Below, in pieces: positions 1,750 through 40,184 of a stretch of DNA of 64,000 nucleotides. This DNA is from a virus. Taxonomy: Duplodnaviria > Heunggongvirae > Uroviricota > Caudoviricetes. The DNA lies in IMG/VR virus record IMGVR_UViG_2703718787_000017. One strand, written 5' to 3'. Under the pieces are notes generated by a model. The model saw only the letters and a list, made by a program, of their open reading frames with translations. It ran no database searches and had not been told where the DNA came from. How positions within the stretch are numbered: the first letter of the stretch is position 1; each line of letters begins with the position of its first letter. Both the position numbers and the translations under genes were made by a program.

Positions 1750-1760
1750 ATGGAGTCTGT

Positions 1761-7700: not shown

Positions 7701-10142
7701 GCGCATATCGCGAAAATCAACCCGAAAATGCCGGACGGCGGTTCGGGGATGACCAACGCGGAGGCGGCGGAAATCATGCAGCGTGTACGTAACAGCGGCA
7801 AACAGGCACAGTATGACCGTCTGGCAGGGATTGTTGACGATATGCTGGCCCGTCGCCGTGAGCTTATCCGTGAGGCAGGACTGGAAGAGAGCGGCGTGGT
7901 GGATGCCTGGCAGAAAGCCTACCGTTACTACGTTCCCCTGAAAGGGCAGGATGTTGACGGTGTGGTGTCACTGCCACGTACAGGCAAGGGATTCACCATC
8001 GGCGGGCGTGAAAGTAAGCAGGCCATGGGGCGCGCATCCCGCGCACAGTCTCCTTCCACTCAGGCGATACAGGATTTGAGCGAATCACTGATCCGCAATC
8101 GCAAAAATGAAGTGGGTAACGCCTTCCTGAAACTGGTACAGGATAATCCCGACAAGGATTACTGGCAGGTATTCACCGATGACAGACCGGATACCATGCG
8201 GACGATTGCAGAGCGCAAGGACAAGGAAACTGGTGAAACCATTCGCGAAGTTGTCGAACGCCCTGTACCGATGGCAATGATGGCAGACCGGTACTTCACC
8301 ACCAAAAAGAACGGCAAAACGTACTACATCAAACTCCATGATCCGCGCCTGATGCGTGCGATGAAGAATATGGGACCGGAAACCAGTAACGCCGTAATCC
8401 GCACGCTGGGGAAAGTTAACCGCTTCCTGGCAACGGTGAACACGTCGTATAACCCGGAATTCCTGGTCAGTAACTTCATCCGTGACGTACAGACGGCGGT
8501 GATGAACCTGAAGGCGGAGCAGGGAAGGAGCGACGGCAAACTGAAAGGGCTGGATAACTTATCCGCACTGGCTGTGGTGAAAGACAGTCGGTCTGCCATG
8601 TCTGCCGTATACGCCAGTCTGCGTGGTAAAACCCTCACGGGCAACGGTGCGCAGTGGCAGAAGGTGTGGAAAGAGTTTGTTGAGGACGGAGGTAAAACCG
8701 GCTGGTTTAACATGGGTGACCTTGAAGGCCAGCAGAAGGAAATGGATCGCCTTGTATCGCTGGCGAAGGGAGGATGGAAAGGCCAGAGTATCGGTGCATG
8801 GAATTCGTTCCTTAACCTTGTCGAGGATGCCAACGGGGCGGTTGAAAACGCTCTGCGTCTTTCTGCCTATAAACACGCCCGTGATGCCGGTTTGTCACGC
8901 CAGCAGGCGGCGTCTCTTGCCAAAAACATGACGGTGAACTTTAACCGTCGTGGTGAGCAGGGGGCGCTGATGAACTCGCTGTACATGTTCGCCAACGCCA
9001 GTATTCAGGGAACGGCAAATCTGGTGAGAACGCTCGGACATCTTAATGGTGAGGGACCTTTACTGGAGCGCCTTCGCTGGAAGAATCTGAATGTTCCGCA
9101 GAAAATCGCGCTTGCCGCTGTGGGAGCGGGTTATCTGCTTGGCTCGCTTAACCGCAGCGTGGCGGGTGAGGATGATGACGGGGTTAACTGGTATGACAAA
9201 GTACCGTCTCATGTGAAAGAGCGTAACCTCGTCATTATGAAATCGGTGTTCGGGGGCAAGGCCGGAGAGTACTGGAGTATTCCTCTGCCTTACGGGTACA
9301 ACGTTTTCTTCCTGCTTGGTCACACAGCCGAAGGGGTGGCAGCGGGCGACCTGACCGCTTCACGTGCTGCCGGTAATGTTGTTGGTGGTGTGCTTGGGGC
9401 ATTCAGTCCTGTGGGCAGTGAAACGTCGGAAACACTGTCCGGGGCATTGCTGAAAAATGCAGCGCCGACCATTCTGCGTCCGTTTGCGAACCTTGCCATG
9501 AATGAAAACTTCATGGGGGCGCAGATTTACCAGGAGAACATGCCGTTTGGTACACCAAAACCTGACAGCCAGCTGGGAAGACGTTCAACGCCAGAAGCGT
9601 ACAAGGCGTTTGCATCCTGGCTGAATGCGTTCTCAGGTGGCAGCCAGTACCGTCCCGGCGCGGTGGATATCACACCGGAATCGCTGAAATTCTGGATTGA
9701 CTATATCTCCGGAGGGACAGGGCGCTTCATTTCCAAAACCACGGATGCGGCGGTGAAATCGCTGAATGGTATTGATATACCGGAACAGCAGGTGCCCTTC
9801 CTGGGGAAAATTTCGGGGGAGGTGATGCCGTATGCAGACCAGCAGAAGATGTACGACCGGATGACAGAGATTGCGCAGTATCACGCAGAGCTGAAGAGTC
9901 TGACCGGTGCAGAAAGAACGGCGTTCATTGACGAGAACAACGGAAAATTGTCGATGAACGGGCTTATGCAGGATACCCGGAAGAGACTGAAGGATTTGCG
10001 TAAACAGCGTGATGCCATTTATGCCGACAGTTCTCTCAGTCTGGCGCAGCAGGCGGCGATAGTGAAATCGGTAGAGCGGGATATGAAGGTTGCCGTGGAT
10101 CGCTTTAACCGCGAGTACAACAAAAAAGTGGGAGTGGATTAA
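1761..10142 (+). CDS. giant multidomain 'polyvalent-type' protein (about 2793 aa) with HExxH zincin-like motif (HEWFH at 5610-5624), second H-E-x-x-H-H motif near 6411, Pro/Glu-rich low-complexity linker and Gly/Ala-rich N- and C-terminal segments
   Basis: Single uninterrupted 8.4-kb frame; start ATG at 1761 preceded by GGAG; HExxH motif read directly; domain architecture otherwise unresolved without profile search. Confidence 0.8.
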   Translation: MAYSEEQRPEAQLGNQNRNSLNIQQPGETDSYEAFFSDPNRWKDNSTSFSLGDVLPTMGKGFAQSVRGTGEMARGLGDAMIQSPVKTGARILNEFSRMGLPGVATVQDIFAGGSRGADEVIDTLPDGKNAVTDTVGKGLKATGKAVSDGAEATDEWLTGKMSPGAVRALNTPMTEGYDDSAVWVAKGVNLIGALVPDMVAGGVAKKVGDVTLRKMLTAGLEKKYIAAGMQPERATALAAEAVDKKMPDLFQAGLITHSTASAQGQSAMAAADAVLNADYSELAQSPKFQQTFLSIDADPQHAQLTDRQKMDLAKERVADEVRAQLATDPELLAVNAMAAKLGDAQLFNLVTRGTAKTVKSGIVRNATEQGAINAAQGGYSRYQENTALRETAGMDVSPWEGVADATIEGAAFGAAMGAPSGAVAGYRGRRQAAEEAAMRDAETVQQDDAAPQPESVDPVAQHRESMQGMNREQLLEQYADADMATEGDASAAHRREAASQLLNELDEQAKRQAVMNELKAKPRSELLEEYRRLSQKEERTETEEQQFQAIREVIRPQQEVTPEAQSQPENAEDGNGSIYPTVRFRDPNEVRIEINGNGASRPAERIEKVRPDNRYFTDEKSAMGSDVFRNAAATGLKPSVVKKGETQYAVEMDNPAFSEDVATETINTLADGERIADADPMEQPAFMRDPRFRGFTGDDTEVQARLARGNVPTAEELVRSQMAEGDAGPTAQELTERPRLPAPGDIHPGQGYPLPGEVARTPDENQAGRGGRFTTTGEVKGQSFQKGQALAPENAAGRQGETLEGEMVRRGLPSPDAQNATAPVREGLPAPDITHNVRMPQPDQLPRTVRNSLPELAQQAEVRRQAGGNRDIPQPETIAPESETTVATDREATVRGGEVRGKKIEDFGEEIKGAAKHRYAQLAETLGKTLEDRDYVTQPLSKLFPKPDYAKLASEGADADTLAMIALYRSDIPVKTKHNTAGWGESVKKVRHSVSEMLNGTVSAKRLAEWMEGRMPSRYADTWQLLRTLPPSQMDKASAYRVVSGVYQAAGGKRYDPPQKLYSLRNKDNKGSNLFFSESRDELLAKAKVWFAEQEEKSQAKGDEKTAPSPDDKIRFDVYRNTRSGDIFIAYGKNKMRVRGGFKSASDARKYIDLHRDELVRHVKEMREISREEQRNATNRDRTGPERRKGDVSPEQFSDAFGFRGVQFGNYVESPRRQADLNRAYDSLHDLADVLNVPTKALSLNGRLGLAFGARGKGKAAAHYESGEVAINLTKGNGPGALAHEWFHSLDNYFGRYDVSSDGKITSGGDFMTEAQRVRRIFKDGRYVDAEYPVRQEVYDAFKGVIQAIKNSDMPRRSALLDEVRSKPYWSTDVEMAARAFERYVQDKARMAGVENDYLVNIRKAPEHNTDNTYAYPTNAELDGGIREAFDHLFRTLKTRETDKGVAFYSRKGMTRTPEGNLISDVNRSAEAKGSPVPQVEAVARGVMSGIKDSDLTVRVVKSQKEAEALAGESFDGYGRVHAFYRPDKREIVLVADNIPDGQTVREKLRHEIIHHAMEHVVTPAEYQTIIKTVLKTRDSDNATIREAWRKVDASYGKESPEVQAGEFLAHMAEKQPNKFVAAWERVVALVKGVLRRTGLLKPTELNDIRLVRETIRTLGQRVREGYTPREDGVGASSQYSRSGKPDPFKVPEGEGERYRDDLARMMKSLRTTDLTVNIGRTPPVLRHLGAPDLPLVISRDTVRKATNGVKHVVPMDVIERLPELMHDPDAIYRSATERNAVVMLLDAVDKNGDPVVSAVHMKATQKLLEVNRIASVYGTENGKKLKSMETAGLTLYRREKLNPDGSLYRGLQLPKDEHSRQGSADKILYPEDIRKGPYYSRTSSLTPEETIASRFVRQMQDKFQVLKAVQENIRKTGGKIDDSNNAYMAEELFHGKAENDLNVMKERYVQPLAKLLADYKIAQADLDEYLYARHAPERNAHIAKINPKMPDGGSGMTNAEAAEIMQRVRNSGKQAQYDRLAGIVDDMLARRRELIREAGLEESGVVDAWQKAYRYYVPLKGQDVDGVVSLPRTGKGFTIGGRESKQAMGRASRAQSPSTQAIQDLSESLIRNRKNEVGNAFLKLVQDNPDKDYWQVFTDDRPDTMRTIAERKDKETGETIREVVERPVPMAMMADRYFTTKKNGKTYYIKLHDPRLMRAMKNMGPETSNAVIRTLGKVNRFLATVNTSYNPEFLVSNFIRDVQTAVMNLKAEQGRSDGKLKGLDNLSALAVVKDSRSAMSAVYASLRGKTLTGNGAQWQKVWKEFVEDGGKTGWFNMGDLEGQQKEMDRLVSLAKGGWKGQSIGAWNSFLNLVEDANGAVENALRLSAYKHARDAGLSRQQAASLAKNMTVNFNRRGEQGALMNSLYMFANASIQGTANLVRTLGHLNGEGPLLERLRWKNLNVPQKIALAAVGAGYLLGSLNRSVAGEDDDGVNWYDKVPSHVKERNLVIMKSVFGGKAGEYWSIPLPYGYNVFFLLGHTAEGVAAGDLTASRAAGNVVGGVLGAFSPVGSETSETLSGALLKNAAPTILRPFANLAMNENFMGAQIYQENMPFGTPKPDSQLGRRSTPEAYKAFASWLNAFSGGSQYRPGAVDITPESLKFWIDYISGGTGRFISKTTDAAVKSLNGIDIPEQQVPFLGKISGEVMPYADQQKMYDRMTEIAQYHAELKSLTGAERTAFIDENNGKLSMNGLMQDTRKRLKDLRKQRDAIYADSSLSLAQQAAIVKSVERDMKVAVDRFNREYNKKVGVD

Positions 10143-17644: not shown

Positions 17645-18675
17645 TTATATTTTTTCGATCTCGACCAGATTAGTGTGCTGCGGGTTTCCCTTCGCCAGTG
17701 GTGAAGGGCGCAGAGTGGTTAGCGTATTCACACAGCCGCCATGGTCGATTTTATCGCCAGACATATTGGCCTCGTGCCAGGCTCCCTGGCCCATAGCGCT
17801 AACTCCAGGGAGAATACGTGGTGTTACTTTGGCTGGTAGCCGAACTTCGCCACGATGGTTAAACACCCGCACCATATCGCCGTTGGCAATCCCACGTTTC
17901 TGCGCATCTATAGGGTTGATCCACACCTCCTGACGGCAGGCAGCCTTCAGGAGATCAATATTGCCGTAGGTCGAGTGAGTACGGGATTTGTAATGGAAAC
18001 CAAACAGTTGCAGTGGGAAGGTTCTACGTTCAGGGGAGTCCCAGCCTTCAAAGGTAGAGGCATAAACTGGCAGTGGGCTTATCACTTCATCTTTTTCCAG
18101 TTCCCAGGTACGGGCAATTTCCGCCAGCTTGCTGGAATAAATTTCAATCTTACCGGAAGGTGTTTTAAGTGGATTTGCCTCGGGGTCGTCACGAAATGCT
18201 TTGTAGGCGACAAAATGACCATTGGGATCTTTACGCTTATAGATACCCATTTTTTTCAGTTCGTCGTAAGACGGTAACGCCGGATCTTTGGCAAGCATTT
18301 TGGCGTACAGATGTTGTAACCATTGTTCCTGCGTGCGACCTTCAGTGAACTTTTGATAGACGTCAGGTCCAAGACGTTTCGCGACTTCACTCAGGATCCA
18401 GTAAATCGGTTTGCGTTCGAATTTTTCGCTGGTGACAGGCTGGAGGAAAATGAGATATCCCATGTTACCGGCGTAGTCGTTAGGAATAATATCTTCCTGC
18501 TCAACGGTCATCAGGTCTGGCAGCAGAATGTCGGCATATTTTGCCGATGAGGTCATAAAGTTTTCGATGACCACAATCATTTCGCATTTCGATTCGTCCT
18601 GCAGAATTTCATGCGTTTTGTTGATGTCAGAATGCTGATTAACGAGGGTATTTCCCGCGTAGTTCCAGATGAACT
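17645..18675 (-). pseudogene. ynfE: ynfE 3' portion (C-terminal about 340 codons) separated from its 5' portion by the island
   Basis: Translation parallels YnfF C-terminus; native frame begins at …IKFIWNYAGNTLVNQ; upstream part of the ORF is island sequence. Confidence 0.85.
18661..18675 (+). repeat. left copy of 15-bp direct repeat AGTTCCAGATGAACT (att core / target duplication)
   Basis: Exact match to 25258-25272. Confidence 0.8.
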
Positions 18676-18736
18676 CCATTGTCAGACGGATGGATGGACT
18701 TGAAGTAGTTGACTCAATGCTACTTAAGGTCCTGAT

Positions 18737-20341
18737 ATGACTGACATTAACCATGATAATACTGTATGTCCATCCAGTTCTTTCTCTGGGTCTCCCTATC
18801 TGTATCAGCAAGTCTGCACCTCAAGTCCTGACACAAGGCTGACACAAATCAATATACTCAGCGTAGCTAAGCCTCAGTTAGTCCGTAGAGCCAATGGTCG
18901 ATATACTATCCGCTTCAGACTCAAGGGACAGACCATCCCGTTTCTTTCAGTATCGACCCGAAGCACAGACAGGAGAGTAGCCACAATGCGTCAGAGAGAG
19001 CTTGCAGCCACAGCTAAGACATTCCTACTAGACAAGCCTGAAGTTTCGCTACAGGAGCTTACAGAGCACCTCCGGTCTATGGCTGAGCAGTTCCTGACAG
19101 ACGCCAGTGATGACTACTGGAATGGACTTGAGGTCGCTACTCTGGTGGACGAGAAGTCCAACCTGAAGGAGCTAGCCGCTACGCAAGCCTTGAGTCTGGA
19201 CCAGCAGAAGGGCATAAGGTTAGCGCTTGAAGTCCTGACCGCAGCACAGCAGAGGGTAGACACTGGTGATGCCTCTGGTCTGATTAAGCTGATTGATGAT
19301 AATAACCATACTGATTACTCAACTATAGGCGACTATACGTCCATTCTGAAGAATGAGCAGGGGGATAGACCAGCAGTTTTCACACAGGTTACTGCTCCTT
19401 GCAGTCACAGCGAGCGTCAGCCATCTGTGGTTTTTTCAAGCCTAGTGTCCTCGCTGCTGGCTGAGAAGGTCCAGACCCTGAAGTCCTCCAGCTACAAGGA
19501 CCTGTCGTCCTCACTGAATACCGTCTCTCGGTTCTTACCTGAAGACATGGACCTGATGTCCCGCTCTGAGTGGCTGGCTGTCAGGGACTCTATGCTTGCT
19601 TCTGAGGTGAGACCATCGACAATCAACAAGCTGCTGACCAAAGCGAAGATGTGTCTCGATTATGGCCTGATGAATGGGCAACTTGAGGGCCGCAACCCTA
19701 TTGAACGGATGAAGCTGACCAAGGATATCGACTCCAAGCGCAGAGCGTTCACAGACGAGGAGCTGGATGGACTTCTTGTCCGGGTAGAGGCTGAGTATCA
19801 GTTCACACGACATACCGCTCACACGACCTCTGAGGCTCGCAGGTGGGCGACTCTGGTCTCTGTGGTCACTGGCGCTCGGTCTGCTGAGGTCTGCCACCTG
19901 ACTAAACGTGACATTGTAACCTTGGACAATGGACTGGTCTGTATCGACATCAATGAAGATGGGGGCGGGAAGTCCGTAAAGAACAAGCATTCAGTCCGAC
20001 TTGTACCGCTGACCGATGGCGCTTATGGGTTTGACCTGAAGTCCTTCCTCGAATGGGTAGACATGCAGCCTGACGAGGGTCCTCTCTTCGGGATGACTCC
20101 AAGCGCATACTCTAGCTGGTTTAACTCAAGGGTCCTCACAGAGGCTCTCCCAGACGCTGAGAACGTCTCTCTACACAGTCTGAGACATTGGCTGGCGACC
20201 CGGATGAAAGAGCGTGGAGTCAATCTGGTGGACGCTCAGGGCATCTTAGGTCACAGCAGTCAGTCCATTACGTATGACCTGTACGGGAAAGGACATGCAG
20301 TTGGTAGGCTGGCTGATGTGCTGAAGACAGCTTTACTTTAA
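18737..20341 (+). CDS. tyrosine recombinase (integrase), 534 aa with extended N-terminal region
   Basis: C-terminal catalytic pattern: …GARSAEVCHL… (Arg), HSLRHWLATR (His-x-x-Arg), ITYDLYGK (Tyr); gene sits just inside the left repeat. Confidence 0.85.
   Translation: MTDINHDNTVCPSSSFSGSPYLYQQVCTSSPDTRLTQINILSVAKPQLVRRANGRYTIRFRLKGQTIPFLSVSTRSTDRRVATMRQRELAATAKTFLLDKPEVSLQELTEHLRSMAEQFLTDASDDYWNGLEVATLVDEKSNLKELAATQALSLDQQKGIRLALEVLTAAQQRVDTGDASGLIKLIDDNNHTDYSTIGDYTSILKNEQGDRPAVFTQVTAPCSHSERQPSVVFSSLVSSLLAEKVQTLKSSSYKDLSSSLNTVSRFLPEDMDLMSRSEWLAVRDSMLASEVRPSTINKLLTKAKMCLDYGLMNGQLEGRNPIERMKLTKDIDSKRRAFTDEELDGLLVRVEAEYQFTRHTAHTTSEARRWATLVSVVTGARSAEVCHLTKRDIVTLDNGLVCIDINEDGGGKSVKNKHSVRLVPLTDGAYGFDLKSFLEWVDMQPDEGPLFGMTPSAYSSWFNSRVLTEALPDAENVSLHSLRHWLATRMKERGVNLVDAQGILGHSSQSITYDLYGKGHAVGRLADVLKTALL
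18829..18850. repeat. two direct copies of TGACACAA (putative integrase arm-type sites, left end)
   Basis: CTGACACAAGGCTGACACAAAT; same motif appears three times near the right end. Confidence 0.45.
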
Positions 20342-20554
20342 GTAGGAAGACCCAAGGTGTAGACCATATACGGCTTGATGGTTGAACCTTGGGTCGCTGA
20401 AGTCTGACTGAAGTTAGGGAGGGTGATAATAATCATAATCCCTCCTGACTATAGGCCCACTGGTTCGCCTTCGGCTGTCCGACTCTAAGTCTGTATGTGG
20501 TCTTATTTAAACTGGTTCCCTAACTCCAGTACTCCAAATTCCTATGGTCTCCTC

Positions 20555-20760
20555 TTGACATTCCTGTTTAACTGTGAGTCGCCTCTGGTCTCTCTTTATA
20601 TATACTTCCTTAATTCCTGAGGCGTCTTTAGTCCTTGACATTCGGTCCAACCTGTGAGTCACATCCGGTCCTCCCTCTATATATATACTTCCTTAATTCC
20701 TAGGGTCGCCTTAATCCTTGACATCCAGTCCAACCTGTGAGTCACATCCTGTCGCTAGCA
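20555..20760 (+). repeat. about 80-bp tandem repeat, 3 units, each with TTGACA, inverted repeat TGTGA-G-TCACA and a TATATATA block; candidate host-RNAP promoter/operator array
   Basis: TTGACA at 20555, 20635, 20718; units align over most of their length; third unit diverges at its 3' end. Confidence 0.6.
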
Positions 20761-20799
20761 AGCTAGCTGTCGCGCTACTGTATGCATCACCAGTGGTGG

Positions 20800-20822
20800 A
20801 CTTGATTATCACTATAGGGGAA
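20800..20822 (+). promoter_or_regulatory. T7-group single-subunit RNAP promoter-like 23-mer ACTTGATTATCACTATAGGGGAA (predicted +1 at G 20817)
   Basis: Positions -8 to +3 identical to T7 consensus TCACTATAGGG; upstream -17 to -9 differs from T7/T3/SP6; lies 30 nt upstream of an RBS and ATG. Confidence 0.5.
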
Positions 20823-20851
20823 CCAACTAATTCAACTACAGGAGATACTCT

Positions 20852-21220
20852 ATGGCACGACCAATCGCAACTCACGACAACACGTTCACCAAAGCCTACT
20901 TGCAGCAGCACTGCGGGGACCTGCTGTCATTCGATGGTCAGGGCGACCTGAGTGGTTGGCTGGATGATGTCCTTACTGGTGCTGGTCGCCTGAACGAATC
21001 AATGGCAAGCAATACCAAGCCTGTCAGCCCATACTTGATTCTGACCCAACTACTAACGCACGACACATTAACTGTAAGCGCTGTGCAGGAGTCCCTGAGC
21101 CGTAAGCGTGTCGCCTTGGGTGAACCTATGGTTTCAACTCGCTACGCTCGCTACGTCTATGCTACCGTCGTCAGCGCCAGTAAATCCGTCCAGTACCACG
21201 CCAGTAAAGCTGGTTCATGA
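20852..21220 (+). CDS. hypothetical protein (122 aa), first gene downstream of promoter-like site 1
   Basis: ORF with AGGAG 8 nt upstream of ATG; no family recognised. Confidence 0.6.
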   Translation: MARPIATHDNTFTKAYLQQHCGDLLSFDGQGDLSGWLDDVLTGAGRLNESMASNTKPVSPYLILTQLLTHDTLTVSAVQESLSRKRVALGEPMVSTRYARYVYATVVSASKSVQYHASKAGS

Positions 21221-21228
21221 TTACGGAC

Positions 21229-21251
21229 CCTAAACTATCACTATAGGGAAG
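21229..21251 (+). promoter_or_regulatory. second T7-group RNAP promoter-like 23-mer CCTAAACTATCACTATAGGGAAG (predicted +1 at G 21246)
   Basis: Shares ATCACTATAGGG with site 1; same -8 to +3 core as T7 consensus. Confidence 0.5.
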
Positions 21252-21781
21252 AGCAGCCTCCACCTCTGGTCTTGATGCGTCAAGTTATGCGGAAGCTCTC
21301 CCGACATTAAGTATCTCTCCTAAGCAATCAAGGTCTGTGACCGCCTCTGTCATTCCTGCATCCCGTGAGTGTTCTTCTGTCGTCTCGGTTAGTAGCTCGT
21401 CTACTCACTACACTGACTTAAGTCTATCAGCACCTACCAGATGCACGCCTGACATGCGGTCCCGCCTTATATGCACATGGAGAACATGGTCCAAATGTAG
21501 CCTACGAAATTTTCGTAAGCTTCGGGCAGGACCAAGGCTGGTAGAAGTCTAACCAACCCAGAAAACGGGTTTGTTAAAAAGATTAACATGGGTCACTTAG
21601 GGCAGGACGCTTCTCTACCGTCCCGCCTTTATTGACACCTGCAGGAAATCATGGTCATCCCCGACCAATCAAATCAACCCTATTCACTTTCGTAAGCACT
21701 TTCGGCGGCTCCATTTGGTAGCGCTGAATAGGTGTGGAGACCCGCAGGGGAACGAGAGTGCTTTCTAAAGGAGCTACCTTA
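21252..21781 (+). other. 530-nt apparently untranslated leader with internal repeats (TCCCGCCTT x2; TTCGTAAGC-N-CTTCGG x2); possible structured RNA, processing sites or replication origin
   Basis: No convincing ORF with RBS (the 71-aa ORF at 21337 is Ser-rich with no SD); repeats read directly. Confidence 0.3.
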
Positions 21782-22873
21782 ATGAACATCCATAAATTCA
21801 TCGACATGAACGAAGTCATCGCCAGCAATCATCCTCTTGCCAAAGGTACCACTGACAGCGTAACGCAGGTCATCGTGTCACACCTGAAGTCCGGCGATGC
21901 AGGTATCGACATCCTGAATGCGCCTAAGGCCGCTAGCGATATGTCTGCCAGCTTCCTGAATGACTTGAAGAGCAAGTATCGTGTCGTGGCTGGTCATAAC
22001 TCTGAGGGTCACATTGATGCATGGCTGGCGCATAAGCACAGCGGACGCCGGGTGACGACTAAAAGCAATGACAAGGGTTATCGCGCTGTGAGCGTGAATG
22101 GTCGCCCGTATCAGGAGCACCGCCTTATCGTGGCCCTGTTCTATGATGTGGCACTGCCGGGCTGGGTGGTAGTTAATCACGCTGTGTCCTGCACCATTTG
22201 GAACGAAGGCAAATCAAACCATCCGTTCAACCTCCGATTAACGACATCATATGGTAACCAGCTTGATAAGAAGGTCCGCGAAGGTGTTCGCAATAAGTTC
22301 ACCGGGTACTACTTCGATGAATATCGTGGCAAGTGGCGCGTCCAGATGAAGCGGCCTTTCGCTGGTGGTCCGCAGCATTTCGGCATGTACGACACCGAAG
22401 CTGAGGCCTACATTGTCCGCTGCGCTGTCCTCCACCAGCATCTTGGTGCGTTCTGGGCGATGACCACCGGGGAATCCGGTCTCGTGCCCCGAGTCAAACC
22501 TGACGGTTCTCTGGTACTGCCTACTGAGCATGGTTACGATTGGGCGGAAAACCTGCCTTATCCTGAGGACTGGGACGACGAGTTCAAGGCCCGGCTGGAG
22601 GAGATGAAGCTGTACTGGGACGCATATCATGTGTTCGGTATTGAAGACGAAGAATACTTCGGCGACTGTGTGTCAGGGCTTGATGTGAACGCAGTAGTGT
22701 TCAACGGCGTGCCTGCCATTATCGACATCACAGAAGGACTTCCGGTGTCATATGCTCACTGGTTCGGACCAAGCCAACGCTTCGAGTTCACCAACTACTA
22801 CCAGCGCTGCATTCACGCCTGTGACCTTGATGCGGAACCTGAAGAGGAAGACTGGATGGAGAACGATTTCTGA
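21782..22873 (+). CDS. HNH endonuclease with AP2-type DNA-binding domain (homing-endonuclease-like)
   Basis: YQEHRLIVALFYD…VVNH motif (HNH) followed by RLTTSYGN…YYFDEYRGKWRVQM…FGMYDTEAEA (AP2-like); RBS AAAGGAG. Confidence 0.75.
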   Translation: MNIHKFIDMNEVIASNHPLAKGTTDSVTQVIVSHLKSGDAGIDILNAPKAASDMSASFLNDLKSKYRVVAGHNSEGHIDAWLAHKHSGRRVTTKSNDKGYRAVSVNGRPYQEHRLIVALFYDVALPGWVVVNHAVSCTIWNEGKSNHPFNLRLTTSYGNQLDKKVREGVRNKFTGYYFDEYRGKWRVQMKRPFAGGPQHFGMYDTEAEAYIVRCAVLHQHLGAFWAMTTGESGLVPRVKPDGSLVLPTEHGYDWAENLPYPEDWDDEFKARLEEMKLYWDAYHVFGIEDEEYFGDCVSGLDVNAVVFNGVPAIIDITEGLPVSYAHWFGPSQRFEFTNYYQRCIHACDLDAEPEEEDWMENDF

Positions 22874-23085
22874 TGACAATTAAACAGCATATCGACCCTC
22901 GCACCGATATCGGCAGGGCAACACTTCGTTATCGTGGTCTGCCTACTCGTCATCTTCTGTCAATGCTGGGGATGGGTACTGATTCATCCGAGCGCCCTTA
23001 CTACAATCGAGACGAGCTGATAGCAATGCTGGTGGACCGTGATTTGAATAATCAGTTGCGTCGAGCCTTTGCTAAGCAGTCCTGA
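22873..23085 (+). CDS. hypothetical protein (70 aa)
   Basis: ATG overlaps stop of upstream gene (TGATG coupling). Confidence 0.5.
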   Translation: MTIKQHIDPRTDIGRATLRYRGLPTRHLLSMLGMGTDSSERPYYNRDELIAMLVDRDLNNQLRRAFAKQS

Positions 23086-23208
23086 CCATACCACCTTAAT
23101 TTAAACACCTTTTGAGAATGACCGATGCGGGGAGACCGTAGGCATAACTGTGTCTGCGATACCGATAGTTCTCACCTTCTCAAGAGGAGTAATTACTATG
23201 TCTAGCAA

Positions 23209-23707
23209 AGCTAGTGCGTTATTCAACAACAACGACTGGAAACTGTCTGTCACCGACATCAATCTCTATGAAAATACTGTGAATCTGGATGGGCAGTCCT
23301 ACCCGTTGTCTCTGGCTATCAAGACCCTCATTCCGGGCTACCTGTCAGGCTTACCGTCCACCAGCAGCGCGGCGATGGAGCTGTTAGAGGCTCTGGCTGA
23401 AGCTGGTGTAGCTATTGGCAACTTCTTCAGTAATGACCTGATGACCGCCTATGGTCGCCGCCAGCAGAACAAGCGAGCTGAGGCTGAGCGTATCGCTAAA
23501 GAGCAGCGCATTCAGGCCGAGCGCATGCGTGAAGAGAACATGACTGATGCAGAGTGGCAGAAAGAGCTACAGCGCCGCGAACAGGTCAAAGCTGAACGCC
23601 GGACCTATGGTGAGAACCTCCGCAGTGCTACCCATTCCGCTGGTCGCTCCCGTGCCGCTATTGTCGCTGACATTGAGTCAGGCGGTAACTGGATGGACAG
23701 CCTCTAA
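23209..23707 (+). CDS. hypothetical protein (166 aa) with charged coiled-coil C-terminal half
   Basis: RBS AGAGGAG 9 nt upstream of ATG; no family recognised; scaffold-like composition is speculation. Confidence 0.6.
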
Positions 23708-23781
23708 GACAGACACACAAGTGGTCCTGACCTGATGTCGGGACCCACAGTATCTAAAACTAATTTAGGAGATTGATTATT

Positions 23782-24771
23782 ATGACCATGATTAAAGATA
23801 GCTATCAGTTCGGCATTGAGCCAGTACGTATCACCGACACCGACAACATTCAGGTAAACGAAGGTCTTCCGACTAACGCCGACCCTCAGGTCTATGCCTT
23901 CCAGTTAGCTAAGCTGGTGAAGACCATGCTCAATTCTGTACTTAAAGACGCTCAGGATAACATTCCGTTCCCTGTAGAAGTCCTGCCAGCTCGCAACAGC
24001 TTACCGACGCCAATCATTGCTCACACTCTGGCTGACCGCTCTGTGGTCGTTCCTGTCCGTGGTGGTAAACGACCTGAAGTCGTGACCGCTCCGTCTGGTA
24101 CTGAAATCACCGTTGAGCCGATTGAGCAAGCTATCCTCGTGTCCCACCAAACCAAGCTATGGGACGCTAAGTCATCCACCGGATTCACTCAGGGCACACT
24201 TCAGCAGGACGCTATGAACATCTGTGAGAATGTGGTCCGTACCATCAACGCTCGCATGGTCGACGTTCTGGAGTCCTCCAAACTGTTGAAGACCGTAGAG
24301 CTTCCTGTCCTGACTGGTAGCCTGACCGCTAAGGCAGACGATATCATGGACGCTCTGTATGACAACACCGAGTCCTCTTTCGGCTCTGAAGTGTCTGATT
24401 ATGGCATCATCGCCCATGAGTCCCAACTGAAAGCGCTGTCCCGTCTGGCTGCTAAACAGGGCTTCTCTGGTGAAGACGCTATCGTGGATATGCTGGGAAC
24501 AGACATCGCCTACTACAACGGTGAAGACAAGGGTGTGTTCATGCTGGCTAAACGCTTCACGGCCCTGAGCTTCGGTTGCTTCCGTCATGATGGCGAGAAC
24601 ATTACCGTGGTCTTATCCCGGGATGGTGACTCTCAGTCTAACTCTCTGGAAATCCTCGGCAAGGTCTTCGTGGTTGCTGAAGCTGCTACGACAATCAAGA
24701 TGGGTACTGGTAGTGCTACTGCTGTCCTGCCTGTAGTCAAACGCCTGAAGTTCACCAAGACCGAAGCGTAA
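23782..24771 (+). CDS. hypothetical protein (329 aa); structural (capsid-like) role possible but unverified
   Basis: RBS TTAGGAG upstream; largest non-enzymatic ORF of the island. Confidence 0.65.
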   Translation: MTMIKDSYQFGIEPVRITDTDNIQVNEGLPTNADPQVYAFQLAKLVKTMLNSVLKDAQDNIPFPVEVLPARNSLPTPIIAHTLADRSVVVPVRGGKRPEVVTAPSGTEITVEPIEQAILVSHQTKLWDAKSSTGFTQGTLQQDAMNICENVVRTINARMVDVLESSKLLKTVELPVLTGSLTAKADDIMDALYDNTESSFGSEVSDYGIIAHESQLKALSRLAAKQGFSGEDAIVDMLGTDIAYYNGEDKGVFMLAKRFTALSFGCFRHDGENITVVLSRDGDSQSNSLEILGKVFVVAEAATTIKMGTGSATAVLPVVKRLKFTKTEA

Positions 24772-24934
24772 GACCATGAGCAGAGGTAAGTCTGGACTGA
24801 ATATCAGCAGGACTTCAGGTGGTGGATTATCAATGTAATTAATAACTATGGTCTGGACTTCGGTCTGGACCTTATTAGCGAAGTTATCCACAGCTTAATA
24901 ACATATACAACTTTATTCACATTAAGGAGGACGC

Positions 24935-25018
24935 ATGGACCTGCATAAAGTCTATCTTATCGTCTTCCTGTTGAAGCTGGTGCTGGTGGTCGTGCTTACA
25001 GTCAGGGTACGGCTGTGA
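24935..25018 (+). CDS. small hydrophobic peptide (27 aa, MDLHKVYLIVFLLKLVLVVVLTVRVRL)
   Basis: Strong RBS TAAGGAGG 5 nt upstream; single predicted TM helix; too short to be in the ORF track. Confidence 0.3.
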   Translation: MDLHKVYLIVFLLKLVLVVVLTVRVRL

Positions 25019-25128
25019 GCTGGCGAGCAGCTAACGATGAGTTTTGGACCAAAAGTTAGAGACCTGATTCAATACAATTAAGACACCAATGTTCCCCGGT
25101 GCCACCCTGAGTCCAGACCGAGGCCACC

Positions 25129-25140
25129 GGGGGGGGGGGG
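25129..25140. repeat. homopolymeric G12 tract
   Basis: Twelve consecutive G read directly, near the island right end. Confidence 0.9.
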
Positions 25141-25170
25141 CTGACCAGCCGTCTAGACATCCCGTCTAAT

Positions 25171-25204
25171 GACACAAGGCTGACACAAAGCCTGACACAA
25201 AGTC
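25171..25204. repeat. three direct copies of TGACACAA(G/A) (putative integrase arm-type sites, right end)
   Basis: ATGACACAAGGCTGACACAAAGCCTGACACAAAG; mirrors the two copies at 18829-18850. Confidence 0.5.
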
Positions 25205-25257
25205 CTTGACTCAATGCAGGACCTCAGGCCTACTAAGGGTCCGCTTCAAGTCCTTGA

Positions 25258-25272
25258 AGTTCCAGATGAACT
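25258..25272 (+). repeat. right copy of 15-bp direct repeat AGTTCCAGATGAACT
   Basis: Exact match to 18661-18675. Confidence 0.8.
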
Positions 25273-26668
25273 TAATGGGCACATCCAGTTTATCTTTGCC
25301 GCGGACGCCGTCGCGGATTGCCGTCATTTGCGGACCATGATCGATAGCATCTGTCCAGCTGAAGCAGGAGATTGACATTTTGACCGGATTATCCAGCACC
25401 GGCAGGCGTTCTATGGTAATGGTATAGGTCGATTCACGCGCGCCACTATTTCCGCCGCTGATGCCGACATTGCCCGTCAAAATAGGTAACATAGCAATAG
25501 CGCGTGCAGTCAGTTCGCCGTTTGCCTGGCGTTGCGGCCCCCAGCCCTGGCAGATATAAGCGGGTTTTGCTGTGCCAATTTCACGCGCCAGTTTGATGAT
25601 ACGGTCTACCGGGATACCGGTAATTTGCGAAGCCCACTGCGGCGTTTTCGCTGTGTTATCATCACCTTCACCAAGAATATAGGCTTTATAGTGACTATTT
25701 TTGGGTGCATCTGCGGGTAAGGTTTTTTCGTCATAGCCGACGCAGTATTTATCGAGAAAAGGTTGATCAACGAGATTTTCGTTAATCAATACCCAGGCAA
25801 TACCCGCAACCAGCGCGGCATCGGTGCCCGGGCGAATAGGGAGCCATTCATCTTCACGACCAGCAGCCGTATCGGTATATCGCGGATCGATAGCAATCAT
25901 TTTGGCGTTCGATTTCTCGCGCGCTTTTTCAAGAAGATAAGTGATGCCACCGCCGCTCATGCGGGTTTCTGCCGGGTTGTTACCAAACATCACGACCAGC
26001 TTGCTGTTTTCAATATCCGTGGTGCTGTTGCCATCATTACTGCCGTAGGTGTAGGGCATGGCACAGGAAATTTGCGCGGTGCTGTAGGAGCCATACTGAT
26101 TGAGTGAACCGCCGTAGCAGTTCATCAGGCGTTTGACCGCCGAGGCTGATGGCGAAGAGCGGGTCATATTGCCGCCAACGATCCCCGAAGAGTACTGAAT
26201 ATATACAGCCTCATTGCCATATTGTTCGACGGTTTTCTTCAGGCTACTGGCGATAGTATCCAGGGCTTCATCCCAGCTAATCCGTTCGAATTTGCCTTCG
26301 CCGCGTTTGCCCACGCGTTTCATTGGGTAATTCAAGCGATCGGGATGATTAATACGCCGACGGATGGATCGACCACGCAAACAGGCGCGTACTTGATGAT
26401 TGCCATACTCGTCGCTGCCGGTGTTGTCAGTTTCCACCCAGGTGACTTCATTATCTTTAACATGTAGACGAAGTGCACAGCGGCTACCACAGTTGACGGA
26501 ACAGGCACCCCAGATCACTTTTTCGCTGGCCTGTTGTACCGCTGCCGCTGCACTGCGCAGGGTGAACGGTAAAGAAAAACCGCCTGCAGCCAGCGCCAGA
26601 GAACCTATCGCGGTTGATTTAACGAGTGTTCTGCGGCTGATGCCCACCATTCGGTCATTTTTGGACAT
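25273..26668 (-). pseudogene. ynfE: ynfE 5' portion (N-terminal about 465 codons incl. Tat signal), interrupted by the island
   Basis: MSKNDRMVGISRRTLVK… Tat motif and CSVNCGSRC; native frame ends at …PIKFIWN then reads into island sequence. Confidence 0.85.
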
Positions 26669-39238: not shown

Positions 39239-40184
39239 ACGCCCACTGGTTATAAACACACAGCTTGCGATGAAGATTGGCTTAAATGAAGCCATTGTGT
39301 TGCAGCAGTTGCATTACTGGTTGAGAGATACCAATTCCGGTATGGAATGTGATGGTGTTCGCTGGATTTACAACACAACGGAACAATGGCTGGAACAGTT
39401 CCCATTCTGGTCAGAGTCAACGTTAAAGCGCGCGTTTGCAAGTCTGAAAACGCTGGGGCTTTTGCGTTGTGAAAAGCTCAATAAATCAAAGCGCGATATG
39501 ACCAATTTCTACACGATCAACTACGGGAGCGAGCTTTTAGATGATGGCAAATTGAGCGAATCCATCGGTTCAAAATGCGCCGCTCCATCAGGTCAAAATG
39601 ACACGATGGAAGAGGTCAAAATGAAACGCTCCATTGGTTCAAAACGATCCAATGTCATCGGGTCAAAATGGCCTGATGATCTTACAGAGAATACAACAGA
39701 GATTACTACAGAGAATAAAAACACTTTTCGTCCGGAAGCTTCGCAACCGGACCCGCAGACGACTGAACAGGATTTTTTAACCCGGAACTCCGACGCGGTT
39801 GTGTTTAGTGCGAAAAAACGCCAGTGGGGTAGCAGGGAGGATTTGGCGTGTGCGCAGTGGATCTGGGGGCGGATCGTGGGCCTCTACGAACAGGCAGCCA
39901 GTGATGATGGCGAGATCATGAGACCAAAAGAGCCTAACTGGACTGTCTGGGCCAATGACGTGCGCACAATGCGGATGCTGGATGGCAGAAGCCACAGACA
40001 AATTTGCGAAATGTTTGGTCGGGTTCAGCGAGATCCATTCTGGGTAAAAAACATCATGAGCCCGTCAAAGCTCCGCGAAAAATGGGACGAACTGGTCATC
40101 CGCCTGGGACGTTCACCTGTACAGCGTTGTGTTAATCATATTTCTGAACCGGATACAGAAATTCCGCCTGGTTTCAGAGGATAA
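39219..40184 (+). CDS. phage replication initiation protein (lambda O-like N-terminal domain) with internal origin iterons
   Basis: N-terminus …LVINTQLAMKIGLNEAIVLQQLHYWL…; five GGT(T)CAAAATG iterons inside the coding region. Confidence 0.8.
   Translation: MSLLFAERPLVINTQLAMKIGLNEAIVLQQLHYWLRDTNSGMECDGVRWIYNTTEQWLEQFPFWSESTLKRAFASLKTLGLLRCEKLNKSKRDMTNFYTINYGSELLDDGKLSESIGSKCAAPSGQNDTMEEVKMKRSIGSKRSNVIGSKWPDDLTENTTEITTENKNTFRPEASQPDPQTTEQDFLTRNSDAVVFSAKKRQWGSREDLACAQWIWGRIVGLYEQAASDDGEIMRPKEPNWTVWANDVRTMRMLDGRSHRQICEMFGRVQRDPFWVKNIMSPSKLREKWDELVIRLGRSPVQRCVNHISEPDTEIPPGFRG
39566..39670 (+). repeat. five direct iterons (consensus GGTCAAAATG) inside the O-like gene; putative replication origin
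   Basis: Repeats at about 39566, 39591, 39614, 39636, 39661. Confidence 0.6.

What the first reader, a model, noticed from the sequence alone, without database searches (positions are those of the whole stretch)
20800..21251. Two phage-T7-type RNA polymerase promoter-like sites on an island that encodes no RNA polymerase
ACTTGATTATCACTATAGGGGAA (20800-20822) and CCTAAACTATCACTATAGGGAAG (21229-21251) both carry the -8 to +3 core TCACTATAGGG of the T7 consensus TAATACGACTCACTATAGGGAGA. Their -17 to -9 specificity region differs from T7, T3, SP6 and K11. Each sits just upstream of island genes. The island has an integrase but no single-subunit RNAP, so expression would depend on an incoming T7-like phage. 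That is the signature expected of a satellite or parasite of T7-group phages, which I do not know to be described.
Basis: partly seen in the sequence, partly recalled or inferred. Interest (0 to 1): 0.9.

Follow-up and report, generated by a model that had tools for sequence, protein, structure and literature searches.

The report
Satellite island wired to K1F-type phages
A 6.6-kb mobile island in E. coli carries promoters that match those read by the RNA polymerase of K1F-like (T7-family) phages, a copy of that phage's DNA-packaging junction and its own capsid gene, so it is probably a parasite ("satellite") of T7-like phages, a kind I could not find described.

Summary
TCACTATAGGG occurs exactly twice in the window, at 20809-20819 and 21238-21248, both on the + strand.

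Site 2 is identical from -17 to +2 to native K1F promoters and scores 32.9 bits (native promoters 31.1-35.8). Site 1 differs at -13 and -11 and scores 22.1 bits. The next best site in the window scores 10.6.

The sites lie in a 6,597-bp island (18676-25272) inserted in ynfE between 15-bp att repeats. The island encodes an integrase, an HNH-type nuclease, a coiled-coil protein and an HK97-fold capsid protein. Its right end is homologous to the Kayfunavirus concatemer (packaging) junction.

Related islands occur in 311 of 5,426 complete E. coli genomes and in seven other enterobacterial genera. All but one of those scanned in full carry 1-6 T7-group promoters on the coding strand, of several specificity classes. 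Unit size stays at 6.4-6.8 kb.

No natural E. coli genome carries a T7-like polymerase gene.

Best reading: a new family of minimal, capsid-encoding satellites of virulent T7-like phages, switched on by the helper's polymerase. Nothing here is experimental, and no excised form was found. Ten literature searches (nine ran) found no prior description.

The parts
18661..18675 (+). attL core AGTTCCAGATGAACT (ynfE sequence duplicated at both island ends)
   Evidence: K-12 ynfE aligns to window 17645-18675 and 25258-26668 with a 15-bp overlap.
18676..25272 (+). The island: 6,597 bp, integrated in ynfE
   Evidence: Related unit sizes are 6567, 6794, 6612, 6740, 6601, 6617 and 6386 bp.
18737..20341 (+). 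Tyrosine integrase (534-aa ORF; PGAP calls a 458-aa version starting at 18965)
   Evidence: Pfam Phage_integrase 1e-13 and PHROG 1 integrase 6e-41; NCBIfam Xer-like hits.
18783..18808 (+). Weak match to the right edge of the K1F terminal repeat plus the adjacent TATCTGTATCAG block (T7 ATCTGTT-like). It lies inside the long integrase ORF.
   Evidence: 13-nt exact match CTATCTGTATCAG to K1F 179-191, with about 23 of 26 nt similar around it. The signal is low because the stretch is coding and short.
19388..19411 (+). 24-bp in-frame insertion in the integrase gene, identical to an indel in the terminal repeat of some Kayfunavirus phages
20417..20455 (+). Hairpin shared with K1F-like phages. The 32-nt stretch 20422-20453 is identical to phiYIO1-1 40046-40077.
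   Evidence: RNA fold -16.2 kcal/mol, z = -3.2.
20554..20753 (+). Three tandem 80-83 bp repeats (TTGACA plus the palindrome TGTGAGTCACA plus a TATATATA run); function unknown
   Evidence: families D1, D2. The scan did not call them sigma-70 promoters.
20800..20822 (+). P1: T7-group promoter, a K1F-class variant (G at -13, T at -11); +1 G at 20817
   Evidence: 22.1 bits on the K1F matrix. Identical in relatives L001, L006 and L058.
20852..21220 (+). 122-aa protein of unknown function, the first gene after P1 (RBS AGGAG)
   Evidence: PHROG 23123, 1e-8. Only distant hypothetical homologues in podophages.
21229..21251 (+). P2: consensus K1F-class promoter; +1 G at 21246
   Evidence: 32.9 bits. A 19-20 nt exact match to four native K1F promoters.
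21259..21461 (+). Conserved structured part of the 536-nt leader transcribed from P2
   Evidence: Conserved whatever gene follows. 45 pairs, 13 with compensatory changes against 4.6+-1.6 in shuffles. No Rfam match.
21782..22873 (+). AP2/HNH-type endonuclease. This slot is variable: relatives carry KilA-N, Rha or another HNH protein.
   Evidence: PHROG 99 HNH endonuclease 1e-16; PGAP name 'AP2 domain-containing protein'; variants.
22873..23085 (+). 70-aa conserved small protein, unknown function
   Evidence: ORF; also present in L008. No family hit.
23150..23707 (+). 185-aa coiled-coil protein, a candidate scaffolding protein (by position only)
   Evidence: Always directly upstream of the capsid gene. 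Only noise-level hits. No similarity to K1F gp9.
23773..24771 (+). HK97-fold major-capsid-like protein (332 aa), the family hallmark
24850..24878 (+). Tphi-like terminator: 9-bp stem with two G.U pairs, a UUCG loop, then UUAUU
   Evidence: -14.4 kcal/mol on the + strand against -8.3 on the - strand. A hairpin sits at the same position in relatives.
24935..25018 (+). 27-aa hydrophobic peptide ORF with a strong RBS (AAGGAGG)
   Evidence: Read from the sequence; conserved in relatives.
25034..25150 (+). Homologue of the Kayfunavirus concatemer junction: a 31-nt block that abuts the terminal repeat in K1F (30 of 31 identical), then the first ~75 nt of the repeat
   Evidence: The same segment from relative L006 matches 217 T7-like phage records at their terminal repeat.
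25170..25199 (+). TGACACAA-type direct repeats, also at 18829-18848; probable integrase arm sites
   Evidence: D11. Conserved in the distant relative L056.
25258..25272 (+). attR core AGTTCCAGATGAACT

Best explanation
The two sites are promoters for the single-subunit RNA polymerase of K1F-like (Kayfunavirus, T7-family) virulent phages. They belong to a 6.6-kb integrative island that is a satellite of those phages.

Proposed cycle:
1. In an uninfected cell the genes after the integrase are silent, because no host-type promoters stand out there (shown only as absence of signal).
2. A K1F-like phage infects and makes its polymerase. That polymerase fires P2 strongly and P1 probably more weakly. 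It transcribes a 122-aa protein, a structured leader RNA, an HNH-type nuclease, a small protein, a putative scaffold and an HK97-fold capsid protein, and stops at a Tphi-like hairpin (inferred from sequence).
3. The integrase excises the island at its 15-bp att sites (inferred).
4. The helper's replisome copies the island, with the phage promoters acting as origins as they do in T7 (inferred; the island is enriched in T7-type primase sites).
5. The helper's terminase recognises the island's copy of the phage concatemer junction and packages it (inferred from homology).
6. Packaging goes either into small capsids built or re-sized by the island's own capsid protein, or as six tandem copies that fill a normal head (6 x 6,597 = 39,582 bp; K1F is 39,704 bp). 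I favour the small capsid, because a capsid gene is otherwise hard to explain.

Shown here: the sequence features, their homology and their conservation. Not shown: any transcription, excision, replication, packaging or transfer.
For: **Promoters**
- P2 is identical to native K1F promoters from -17 to +2 and scores in their range. P1 and P2 are the only outliers in 128 kb.
- A Kayfunavirus RNAP was shown in vitro to use ACTTAACTATCACTATAGGGA (PMC12272871).
- K1F-class promoters are orthogonal to the T7, T3 and N4 classes (PMC3458549).
- Both sites face the genes. Sigma-70-like sites are not enriched: 6 found against 6.2 expected.

**Packaging site**
- Window 25034-25064 matches 30 of 31 nt of the block that abuts the K1F right terminal repeat. 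The next ~75 nt align with the start of that repeat.
- The same segment of a relative hits 217 T7-like phage records, annotated 'terminal repeat' in Ro45lw.
- A plasmid carrying the T7 Pac signal is packaged by T7 (PMC9860248).

**Capsid gene**
- The 332-aa protein has an HK97 fold.
- A Tphi-like terminator follows it.

**Family**
- Related islands occur in 311 of 5,426 complete E. coli genomes at two att sites.
- They also occur in Leclercia, Citrobacter, Enterobacter, Buttiauxella, Kluyvera, Proteus and Shimwellia.
- All but one (L060) of the islands scanned in full carry 1-6 T7-group promoters on the coding strand. Classes include K1F, ACCCT-type, the CCCACACTATAGGG class of E. coli phage SRT7, and SP6-like, often in tandem pairs. 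L060 carries only variant-core sites.
- Unit size stays at 6.39-6.79 kb although gene content differs.

**Contact with the phage**
- T7-type primase sites occur at 6.8 and 6.2 per kb, against 1.6-2.4 in flanking DNA and 4.9/4.5 in K1F.
- The island shares a 32-nt hairpin and a 24-bp indel with Kayfunavirus genomes.

**No resident polymerase**
- None in the window.
- Among complete E. coli genomes, only 28 matched, and the 10 listed are engineered or laboratory T7-RNAP expression strains.
Against: - There is no experimental evidence of any kind.
- The predicted attP junction was not found in JGI metagenome contigs or in IMG/VR.
- IMG/VR copies of the capsid gene carry isolate-type IMG identifiers (my reading of the contig names), not virome identifiers.
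- A 6.66-kb stand-alone contig turned out to be an integrated copy with short flanks.
- No excisionase, replication initiator or small terminase was recognised.
- In the integrated state the integrase gene is upstream of both phage promoters, so how excision is triggered is unexplained.
- P1 departs from the K1F class at -11 and -13. In T7 the -11 position is a key specificity contact (textbook knowledge), and no phage with P1's variant as its main promoter class was found.
- The match to the right edge of the terminal repeat is short and lies in coding sequence.
- The capsid protein has no detectable sequence similarity to helper capsid proteins, so its fit with the helper's portal is conjecture.
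- T7-like phages degrade host DNA within minutes, which leaves little time.
Confidence: 0.7

Rival explanations
1. A defence (abortive-infection or interference) island that does not spread by the phage. The phage promoters act only as infection sensors that switch on a nuclease and decoy proteins. The junction copy is a decoy that titrates the phage terminase, and the capsid-like protein poisons head assembly.
For: - The slot after P2 is variable and holds nuclease- or antirepressor-type genes: AP2-HNH, HNH, KilA-N, Rha.
- No replication or excision accessory genes were recognised.
- No excised form was found.
- Known satellites also interfere with their helpers, so the two roles can coexist.
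Against: - No match to any PADLOC defence model.
- A decoy does not need a tight 6.4-6.8 kb size, an integrase with two att sites and spread over eight genera, or a full-length, well-conserved capsid fold with a partner gene and its own terminator.
Confidence: 0.15
2. Same satellite, different packaging step. The island is packaged as a head-full of six tandem copies in normal helper capsids, as PICMI is. The HK97-fold protein is not the shell but a size-redirecting or interfering subunit, as Ccm is in SaPIbov5.
For: - 6 x 6,597 = 39,582 bp against 39,704 bp for K1F. Unit sizes x6 give 38.3-40.8 kb, and the Kayfunavirus records retrieved here run 38.4-40.6 kb.
- PICMI packages 8 copies (~49 kb), matching its helper genome (PMC10803314).
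- T7 is described as cutting at PacC only after head filling (PMC9860248).
Against: - PICMI needs no capsid gene, whereas this family always keeps one plus an upstream partner.
Confidence: 0.25
3. A decayed remnant of a temperate T7-like prophage that has kept a few promoters, a capsid gene and the genome ends by accident.
For: The order of features resembles a miniature T7 late region: promoter, scaffold-like gene, capsid gene, terminator, junction. Integrase-bearing T7-like prophages exist in other bacteria (my knowledge).
Against: - The same compact, intact architecture and size recur in 311 E. coli genomes and seven other genera.
- No fragment of an RNAP, DNAP, portal, tail or terminase gene is present.
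- The boundaries are clean att sites.
- The promoter classes are diverse, match the consensus and are often paired, which points to selection rather than decay.
- The capsid protein is unrelated in sequence to T7-group capsids.
Confidence: 0.05
4. Chance resemblance: the two sites are ordinary sequence with no promoter function.
For: The tool's shuffle test with one mismatch allowed is not significant.
Against: - Two exact 11-mers against about 0.03 expected.
- A 19-20 nt identity to native K1F promoters.
- Scores of 32.9 and 22.1 bits against 10.6 for the next best site.
- The same sites are conserved at the same two positions in islands about 10% diverged and in other genera.
Confidence: 0.01

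Closest known systems
PICMI (phage-inducible chromosomal minimalist islands of Vibrionaceae; PMC10803314)
   Same: A very small (~6 kb) integrase-bearing island that depends on a virulent phage. Its size is an integer fraction of the helper genome: 1/8 there, 1/6 here.
   Different: PICMI has alpA and a primase, no capsid gene, headful-like packaging with random ends, and no reported phage-polymerase promoters or helper pac homology. This island has a capsid gene, a homologue of the helper's junction and helper-RNAP promoters. It has no alpA or primase. The helpers are T7-like podophages.
Capsid-forming PICIs (cf-PICIs, e.g. EcCI2; PDB 9gyi appears among the fold matches)
   Different: As I recall, cf-PICIs are larger. 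They encode a full head module (portal, protease, adaptors, terminase small subunit) and take only tails from temperate helpers. Here there is only a capsid protein and a possible scaffold in 6.6 kb, and the putative helper is virulent.
SaPIbov5 Ccm
   Different: It belongs to a cos-type SaPI in Staphylococcus with temperate siphovirus helpers. It is induced by derepression, not by a phage polymerase.
PLE of Vibrio cholerae
   Same: A satellite of a strictly virulent phage. It is silent until infection, interferes with the helper and includes nucleases (abstracts seen).
   Different: PLE is about 18 kb, has its own replication initiator and an external scaffold (TcaP), and no capsid protein. 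Its activation is not known to work through phage-polymerase promoters.
Laboratory T7 transducing plasmids (Chung & Hinkle 1990, cited in PMC9860248; T7 delta-Pac system)
   Same: DNA carrying a T7 promoter/origin plus the concatemer junction (Pac) is replicated and packaged by T7. This is the exact logic proposed here.
   Different: Those are artificial constructs. This would be a natural, integrative, self-contained element with its own capsid gene.
K1F / Kayfunavirus promoters (K1F DQ111067; Ro45lw RNAP promoter, PMC12272871)
   Same: P2 is indistinguishable from a native promoter of this class.
   Different: It sits in a bacterial chromosome island, not in a phage genome. P1 carries two substitutions in the specificity region.

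Membership tests
T7-group single-subunit RNAP promoter, K1F (Kayfunavirus) class | 23-bp element matching the class consensus from -17 to +6, with the conserved -8 to +3 core | tested here: met
   P2 scores 32.9 bits (native 31.1-35.8) and P1 22.1 bits. There are exact 19-20 nt matches to K1F promoters.
T7-group single-subunit RNAP promoter, K1F (Kayfunavirus) class | Class-specific bases in the specificity-loop contact region (-12 to -8 = AACTAT.. / ACTAT) | tested here: met
   P2 matches fully. P1 does NOT: it has T instead of C at -11 and G instead of A at -13. P1 is therefore a variant whose cognate polymerase or strength is unknown.
T7-group single-subunit RNAP promoter, K1F (Kayfunavirus) class | Initiation at the +1 G by the cognate polymerase | not testable with these tools
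   Only indirect support: Ro45lw RNAP uses ACTTAACTATCACTATAGGGA in vitro (PMC12272871).
Phage satellite (general definition) | A mobile element with its own integration functions that lacks the genes for a complete virion and replication | tested here: met
   Integrase plus att sites. Six to seven small genes, with no portal, tail, terminase, polymerase or primase.
Phage satellite (general definition) | A packaging signal matched to the helper | tested here: met
   Homology to the Kayfunavirus concatemer junction. Function not shown.
Phage satellite (general definition) | Helper-dependent induction, excision and replication | not testable with these tools
   Inferred from helper-RNAP promoters and primase-site enrichment. 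No attP junction in three collection scans.
Phage satellite (general definition) | Packaging into helper-derived particles and transfer to new cells | not testable with these tools
   No virome evidence was found.
PICI (classical, Gram-negative type) | int, alpA, a pri-rep replication module with its ori, a master repressor or helper-activated alpA, and packaging redirection genes; about 10-15 kb | tested here: not met
   No alpA, primase/replicase, repressor or terS/ppi/rpp homologue. Size is 6.6 kb.
cf-PICI | A complete head module (capsid protein, portal, protease, head-tail connectors, small terminase) | tested here: not met
   Only a capsid-fold protein and a possible scaffold are present.
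PICMI | Integration next to fis; core genes int, alpA, prim; no capsid-related gene; Vibrionaceae | tested here: not met
   att sites are in ynfE or tRNA-Gly. No alpA or prim. A capsid gene is present. Compared with PMC10803314.
Defective T7-like prophage | Residual T7-like genes (RNAP, DNAP, portal, tail, terminase) in the island or next to it | tested here: not met
   None in the island or window. None next to the twin island in a complete genome. The K1F RNAP gene has no natural E. coli match among the records listed.
HK97-fold major capsid protein | The HK97 fold: N-arm, E-loop, P-domain with a spine helix, A-domain | tested here: met

The most novel reading that the evidence does not exclude
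Enterobacteria harbour a widespread, so far undescribed family of minimal (6.4-6.8 kb) satellites of virulent T7-like phages. The helper's own RNA polymerase switches them on directly, through arrays of promoters of several specificity classes, so that one island can answer several phage genera. The helper's replisome copies them. Packaging goes through a copy of the T7-type concatemer junction into small capsids made from the satellite's single capsid gene.
Probability: 0.5. Interest if true: 0.92.

Novelty: new variant of a known kind. Interest (0 to 1): 0.85.

Why it matters
- **A gap in a well-studied model.** T7 and its relatives are the textbook strictly lytic phages. I know of no satellite for them and could not find one.
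- **Practical relevance.** K1F-type phages (K1F, LM33_P1 and relatives) infect capsulated pathogenic E. coli. As I recall, they are being considered for therapy. A resident parasite present in about 6% of complete E. coli genomes could lower phage yield, move genes between strains through a 'non-transducing' phage, and alter therapy outcomes.
- **A very simple induction mechanism.** A promoter that only the invader's polymerase reads is about the simplest infection sensor possible. It needs no repressor.
- **A record of predation.** The mix of promoter classes in each island could show which T7-like phages prey on that lineage.
- **A testable minimal system.** A two-gene head module that may use a foreign portal and terminase could show what is minimally needed to build a DNA-filled capsid.
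- **Possible use as a tool.** It could serve as a natural chassis for T7-based transducing particles.

Tried and rejected
1. **Repeat used as att.** The 20-bp direct repeat at 18829 and 25170 looked like att. Alignment to K-12 ynfE showed the true core is the 15-bp repeat at 18661 and 25258.
2. **Cognate phage for P1.** ATTATCACTATAGGG occurs only singly in IMG/VR, for example once after the RNAP gene of Pectobacterium phage PPWS4. No phage uses it as its main class.
3. **Cognate phage for the ACCCT class.** TACCCTCACTATAGGGA also occurs only singly.
4. **Island-sized stand-alone contigs as a sign of excision.** One was a chromosomal fragment. The other was an integrated copy with 15-bp flanks.
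5. **attP junction.** Not found in two metagenome scans and one viral scan.
6. **Capsid protein by sequence.** No Pfam, PHROG, PDB, phage tblastn or hhalign signal. The first structure model, from a shallow alignment, failed at pLDDT 45. Only a deeper alignment from the exhaustive HMMER search gave a usable model.
7. **The 185-aa protein as a relative of K1F scaffold gp9.** No similarity. The Pfam T7_gp14 hit (E = 0.029) is coiled-coil noise.
8. **The three tandem repeats as sigma-70 promoters, like T7 A1-A3.** Not supported.
9. **Right edge of the terminal repeat.** The match is real but short and inside the integrase ORF, so I give it little weight.
10. **Known families.** No Rfam match for the island and no PADLOC defence model.
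11. **Literature.** Ten searches were submitted and nine ran (one search failed on a term shorter than three characters). Terms covered satellites, T7-like, K1F, Kayfunavirus, Studiervirinae and concatemer junction. No description of such an element turned up.
Full report
**1. The observation.**
TCACTATAGGG is exact at 20809-20819 and 21238-21248. No other site in the 64-kb window matches, even with one mismatch. That tool's shuffle test allowed a mismatch and is uninformative (13 of 100 shuffles gave two or more matches).

A weight matrix built from the ten distinct native promoters of phages K1F and phiYIO1-1 separates the sites cleanly:

| site | score (bits) |
|---|---|
| site 2 (P2, 21229-21251) | 32.9 |
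| native K1F/phiYIO1-1 promoters | 31.1-35.8 |
| site 1 (P1, 20800-20822) | 22.1 |
| next best of 127,956 positions | 10.6 |

Background is -28 with sd 8.3.

**2. Which polymerase.**
I fetched K1F (DQ111067) and phiYIO1-1 (PP079210). Both are ~40-kb T7-like phages with their own RNAP and an endosialidase tailspike. Each has nine promoters of the form (A/C)CT(A/T)AACTATCACTATAGG(G/A).

P2 (CCTAAACTATCACTATAGGGA) is identical over 19-20 nt to four of them. P1 (ACTTGATTATCACTATAGGGG) differs at -13 (G) and -11 (T).

Published experiments support the class:
- The RNAP of Ro45lw, whose genome was among the T7-like records retrieved here, needs 5'-ACTTAACTATCACTATAGGGA as its minimal promoter in vitro (PMC12272871).
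- K1F-type promoter and specificity-loop pairs are orthogonal to the T7, T3 and N4 types (PMC3458549).

P1's exact variant is not the main promoter of any phage in IMG/VR. It occurs singly, for example in Pectobacterium phage PPWS4. P1 is nevertheless conserved base for base in islands about 10% diverged.

**3. The element.**
Aligning K-12 ynfE to the window shows a clean insertion. ynfE positions 1-1031 and 1017-2427 align to window 17645-18675 and 25258-26668. The 15-bp overlap AGTTCCAGATGAACT is the att core.

The island is therefore 18676-25272, 6,597 bp. All its genes are on the + strand:
- a tyrosine integrase
- P1, then a 122-aa protein
- P2, then a 536-nt leader
- an AP2/HNH-type nuclease
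- a 70-aa protein
- a 185-aa coiled-coil protein
- a 332-aa protein

Sigma-70-like sites are not enriched: 6 found against 6.2 expected.

**4. No resident polymerase.**
The other large ORFs of the window are a polyvalent LPD5/MuF protein in a prophage remnant, ynfF, and a lambdoid prophage with gpA-type terminase, capsid and tape measure. The twin island in a complete genome has the same boundaries and neighbours.

The K1F RNAP gene was searched at low stringency against 5,426 complete E. coli genomes. It matched only 28. The 10 listed are engineered or laboratory expression strains such as BL21-AI and several DE3 strains, matching at about 69% identity, presumably through T7 gene 1.

**5. A copy of the helper's packaging junction.**
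K1F has a 178-bp terminal repeat. Window 25034-25064 (ACGATGAGTTTTGGACCAAAAGTTAGAGACC) matches 30 of 31 nt of K1F 39493-39523. That block ends 3 nt before the right terminal repeat.

The next ~75 nt align with the start of the repeat. The shared landmarks are TCTCA.A.., CCCCATAGGCCC and AAGTCCAGACC.AGGCC. All family members keep this segment, with variants of the 31-nt block.

The same segment taken from relative L006 matches 217 phage records. The listed hits are ~37-40 kb T7-like phages, apart from one 7.8-kb record. In Ro45lw the matched region is annotated 'terminal repeat'.

A weaker match to the right edge of the repeat, with its TATCTGTATCAG block, lies at 18783-18808. That block resembles the T7 ATCTGTT pause signal, which I cite from memory. 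Because the match sits inside the long integrase ORF, I give it little weight.

In the excised circle, the junction block, the att site and this second block would be contiguous. T7 packages any plasmid that carries its Pac signal (PMC9860248, which cites Chung and Hinkle 1990).

**6. A capsid gene.**
The 332-aa protein has no sequence-level annotation. An exhaustive HMMER search found 64 relatives, many of them remote (down to about 25% identity). With those sequences AlphaFold gave a confident model at pLDDT 84.

- Foldseek found 210 PDB matches at E<=1e-3. All 50 listed are HK97-fold capsid proteins or encapsulins.
- The viral structure library gave the same picture.
- One remote homologue carries Ig-like domains, which are typical of exposed virion proteins.

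The gene is always preceded by a 155-185-aa protein. I call this protein a candidate scaffold from position only. The gene is followed by a strand-specific hairpin plus a U-run, at the place where Tphi sits after gene 10 in T7.

**7. The family.**
Related islands occur in 311 of 5,426 complete E. coli genomes, at ynfE or at a tRNA-Gly gene. The middle module is variable: AP2-HNH, HNH, KilA-N, Rha or DUF4145.

A species-level genome scan found them in Leclercia, Citrobacter, Enterobacter, Buttiauxella, Kluyvera, Proteus and Shimwellia. Capsid homologues at 37-44% identity sit in the same kind of island.

Every island scanned in full except L060 carries 1-6 T7-group promoters on the coding strand, and the classes differ. 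L060 carries only variant-core sites. The classes are:
- K1F type
- TTATACCCTCACTATAGGGA and AATAACCCCTCACTATAGGGG
- TAATGAGACCCACACTATAGGGAGA, and in Proteus TTAATTAACCCACACTATAGGGAGAC
- an SP6-like TTAAGGAAGGTACACTATAGGGAGAGA
- variants with other initiation regions

The string AACCCACACTATAGGGAGA, exact in the Proteus island, occurs 8 times in E. coli phage SRT7. It occurs 6 times in a 38,497-bp T7-like contig that I take, from memory of its size, to be Vibrio phage N4. Promoters of two classes often sit in tandem at the same two positions. Decay would not produce this pattern. It fits selection to respond to whichever T7-like phages attack the lineage.

Unit size is held at 6,386-6,794 bp despite different gene content.

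**8. Further traces of contact with the phage.**
- T7-type primase recognition pentamers ([GT]GGTC, GTGTC) occur at 6.8 and 6.2 per kb on the two island strands. Flanking DNA has 1.6-2.4 per kb and K1F has 4.9 and 4.5. Dinucleotide-type shuffles of the island give about 24+-4 against 45 and 41 observed.
- A 32-nt hairpin at 20422-20453 is identical to a site about 100 nt downstream of the last promoter of phiYIO1-1.
- A 24-bp in-frame insertion in this island's integrase (19388-19411) is absent from sister islands. It is identical to a 24-bp indel in the terminal repeat of 18 Kayfunavirus-type records and is absent from K1F.

**9. Mechanism and its weak points.**
The features fit a satellite. 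The helper's polymerase would switch it on, the helper's replisome would copy it, and the helper's terminase would package it through the junction copy. In T7 the promoters phi1.1A/B, phiOL and phiOR double as origins (my knowledge).

Two packaging modes fit the size constraint:
- monomers in small heads made with the island's capsid protein
- hexamers in normal heads: 6 x 6,597 = 39,582 bp against 39,704 bp for K1F (PICMI packages 8 copies)

I favour the first, because the capsid gene is universal in the family.

Not shown: any transcription, excision, replication or packaging. Specific gaps:
- The attP junction was absent from two metagenome scans and one viral scan.
- IMG/VR copies carry isolate-type identifiers.
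- No excisionase, replication initiator or small terminase was recognised.
- The integrase lies upstream of both phage promoters, so the excision trigger is unknown.

A defence-only reading remains possible, with sensor promoters, a nuclease and decoys. It does not explain the size constraint, the integrase-mediated spread or the full capsid module. No PADLOC model matches.

**10. Comparison and novelty.**
The island works like a phage satellite, but it fails the membership tests for PICI, cf-PICI, PICMI and P4-like elements. It is not a defective T7-like prophage.

Its nearest functional analogue is artificial: T7 transducing plasmids that carry a T7 promoter/origin plus the concatemer junction. 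Ten literature searches were submitted and nine ran (one search failed). They covered 7.7 million PMC papers and bioRxiv up to mid-2026 and found no description of a satellite of T7-like phages or of this island. Subscription-only papers are not covered.

I rate it a new variant (a new family) of a known kind, of high interest, with the function still to be shown.

Noticed in passing
window 19388-19411 (also phiYIO1-1 L003 68-91): A 24-bp in-frame insertion in the island integrase is present in the window and its twin and absent in sister islands. It is identical to a 24-bp indel in the terminal repeat of 18 Kayfunavirus-type phage records and is absent in K1F. The same short sequence is polymorphic in both partners, and the mechanism is unknown.
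   Followed up: yes
window 21259-21461 (leader 21246-21781): A conserved, apparently structured ~200-nt RNA lies downstream of P2 and is kept whatever gene follows. It has 45 pairs, 13 with compensatory changes against 4.6+-1.6 in shuffles, and 95% of cells paired against 26-35% when partners are slid. There is no Rfam match. It is a candidate non-coding RNA or a T7-type origin. Caveat: the structure was derived from the same 8 sequences.
   Followed up: partly
window 20554-20753: Three tandem 80-83 bp repeats lie between the integrase gene and P1. Each carries TTGACA, the palindrome TGTGAGTCACA and a TATATATA run. They are not called as sigma-70 promoters. They could be iterons or regulator-binding sites.
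   Followed up: partly
window 20417-20455; K1F L004 38985-39008; phiYIO1-1 L003 40046-40077: The island shares a hairpin with K1F-like phages. The loop is in opposite orientation in K1F and phiYIO1-1, and the island has the K1F orientation. Its 3' side (CCTGACTATAGG) resembles the GACTATAG-type promoters seen in a distant island (L056).
   Followed up: partly
window 25129-25140: A G12 homopolymer lies inside the terminal-repeat-like segment. Relatives have G5 there. It could be a slippage-prone tract.
   Followed up: no
window 18829-18848 and 25170-25199: TGACACAA-type direct repeats occur near both island ends and are conserved even in a 37%-identity relative (L056). They are probably integrase arm-binding sites. 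I first mistook them for att.
   Followed up: partly
window 18676-25272 against flanks: T7-type primase recognition pentamers are about three times denser in the island than in flanking E. coli DNA. They are also denser than in K1F itself.
   Followed up: yes
window 24935-25018: A 27-aa hydrophobic peptide ORF with a strong Shine-Dalgarno sequence lies between the terminator and the junction copy. It is conserved in relatives.
   Followed up: no
window 1722-10142: A 2,806-aa polyvalent protein (LPD5, LPD1, LPD38 and MuF-C domains) lies in a prophage remnant next to DUF551, Ead/Ea22 and antirepressor genes, to the left of ynfF.
   Followed up: no
window 32029-64000: A lambdoid prophage with an integrase, an Rv2179c-like exonuclease-domain protein, a gpA-type terminase, a ClpP-capsid fusion and a tape measure. 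It is unrelated to the finding.
   Followed up: no
L010 4396-5030, L054 2368-5570, L008 2436-2500 and 3650-3700: Sister islands carry tandem pairs of promoters of different polymerase classes about 25-30 nt apart, as if to respond to two phage groups from one position.
   Followed up: partly
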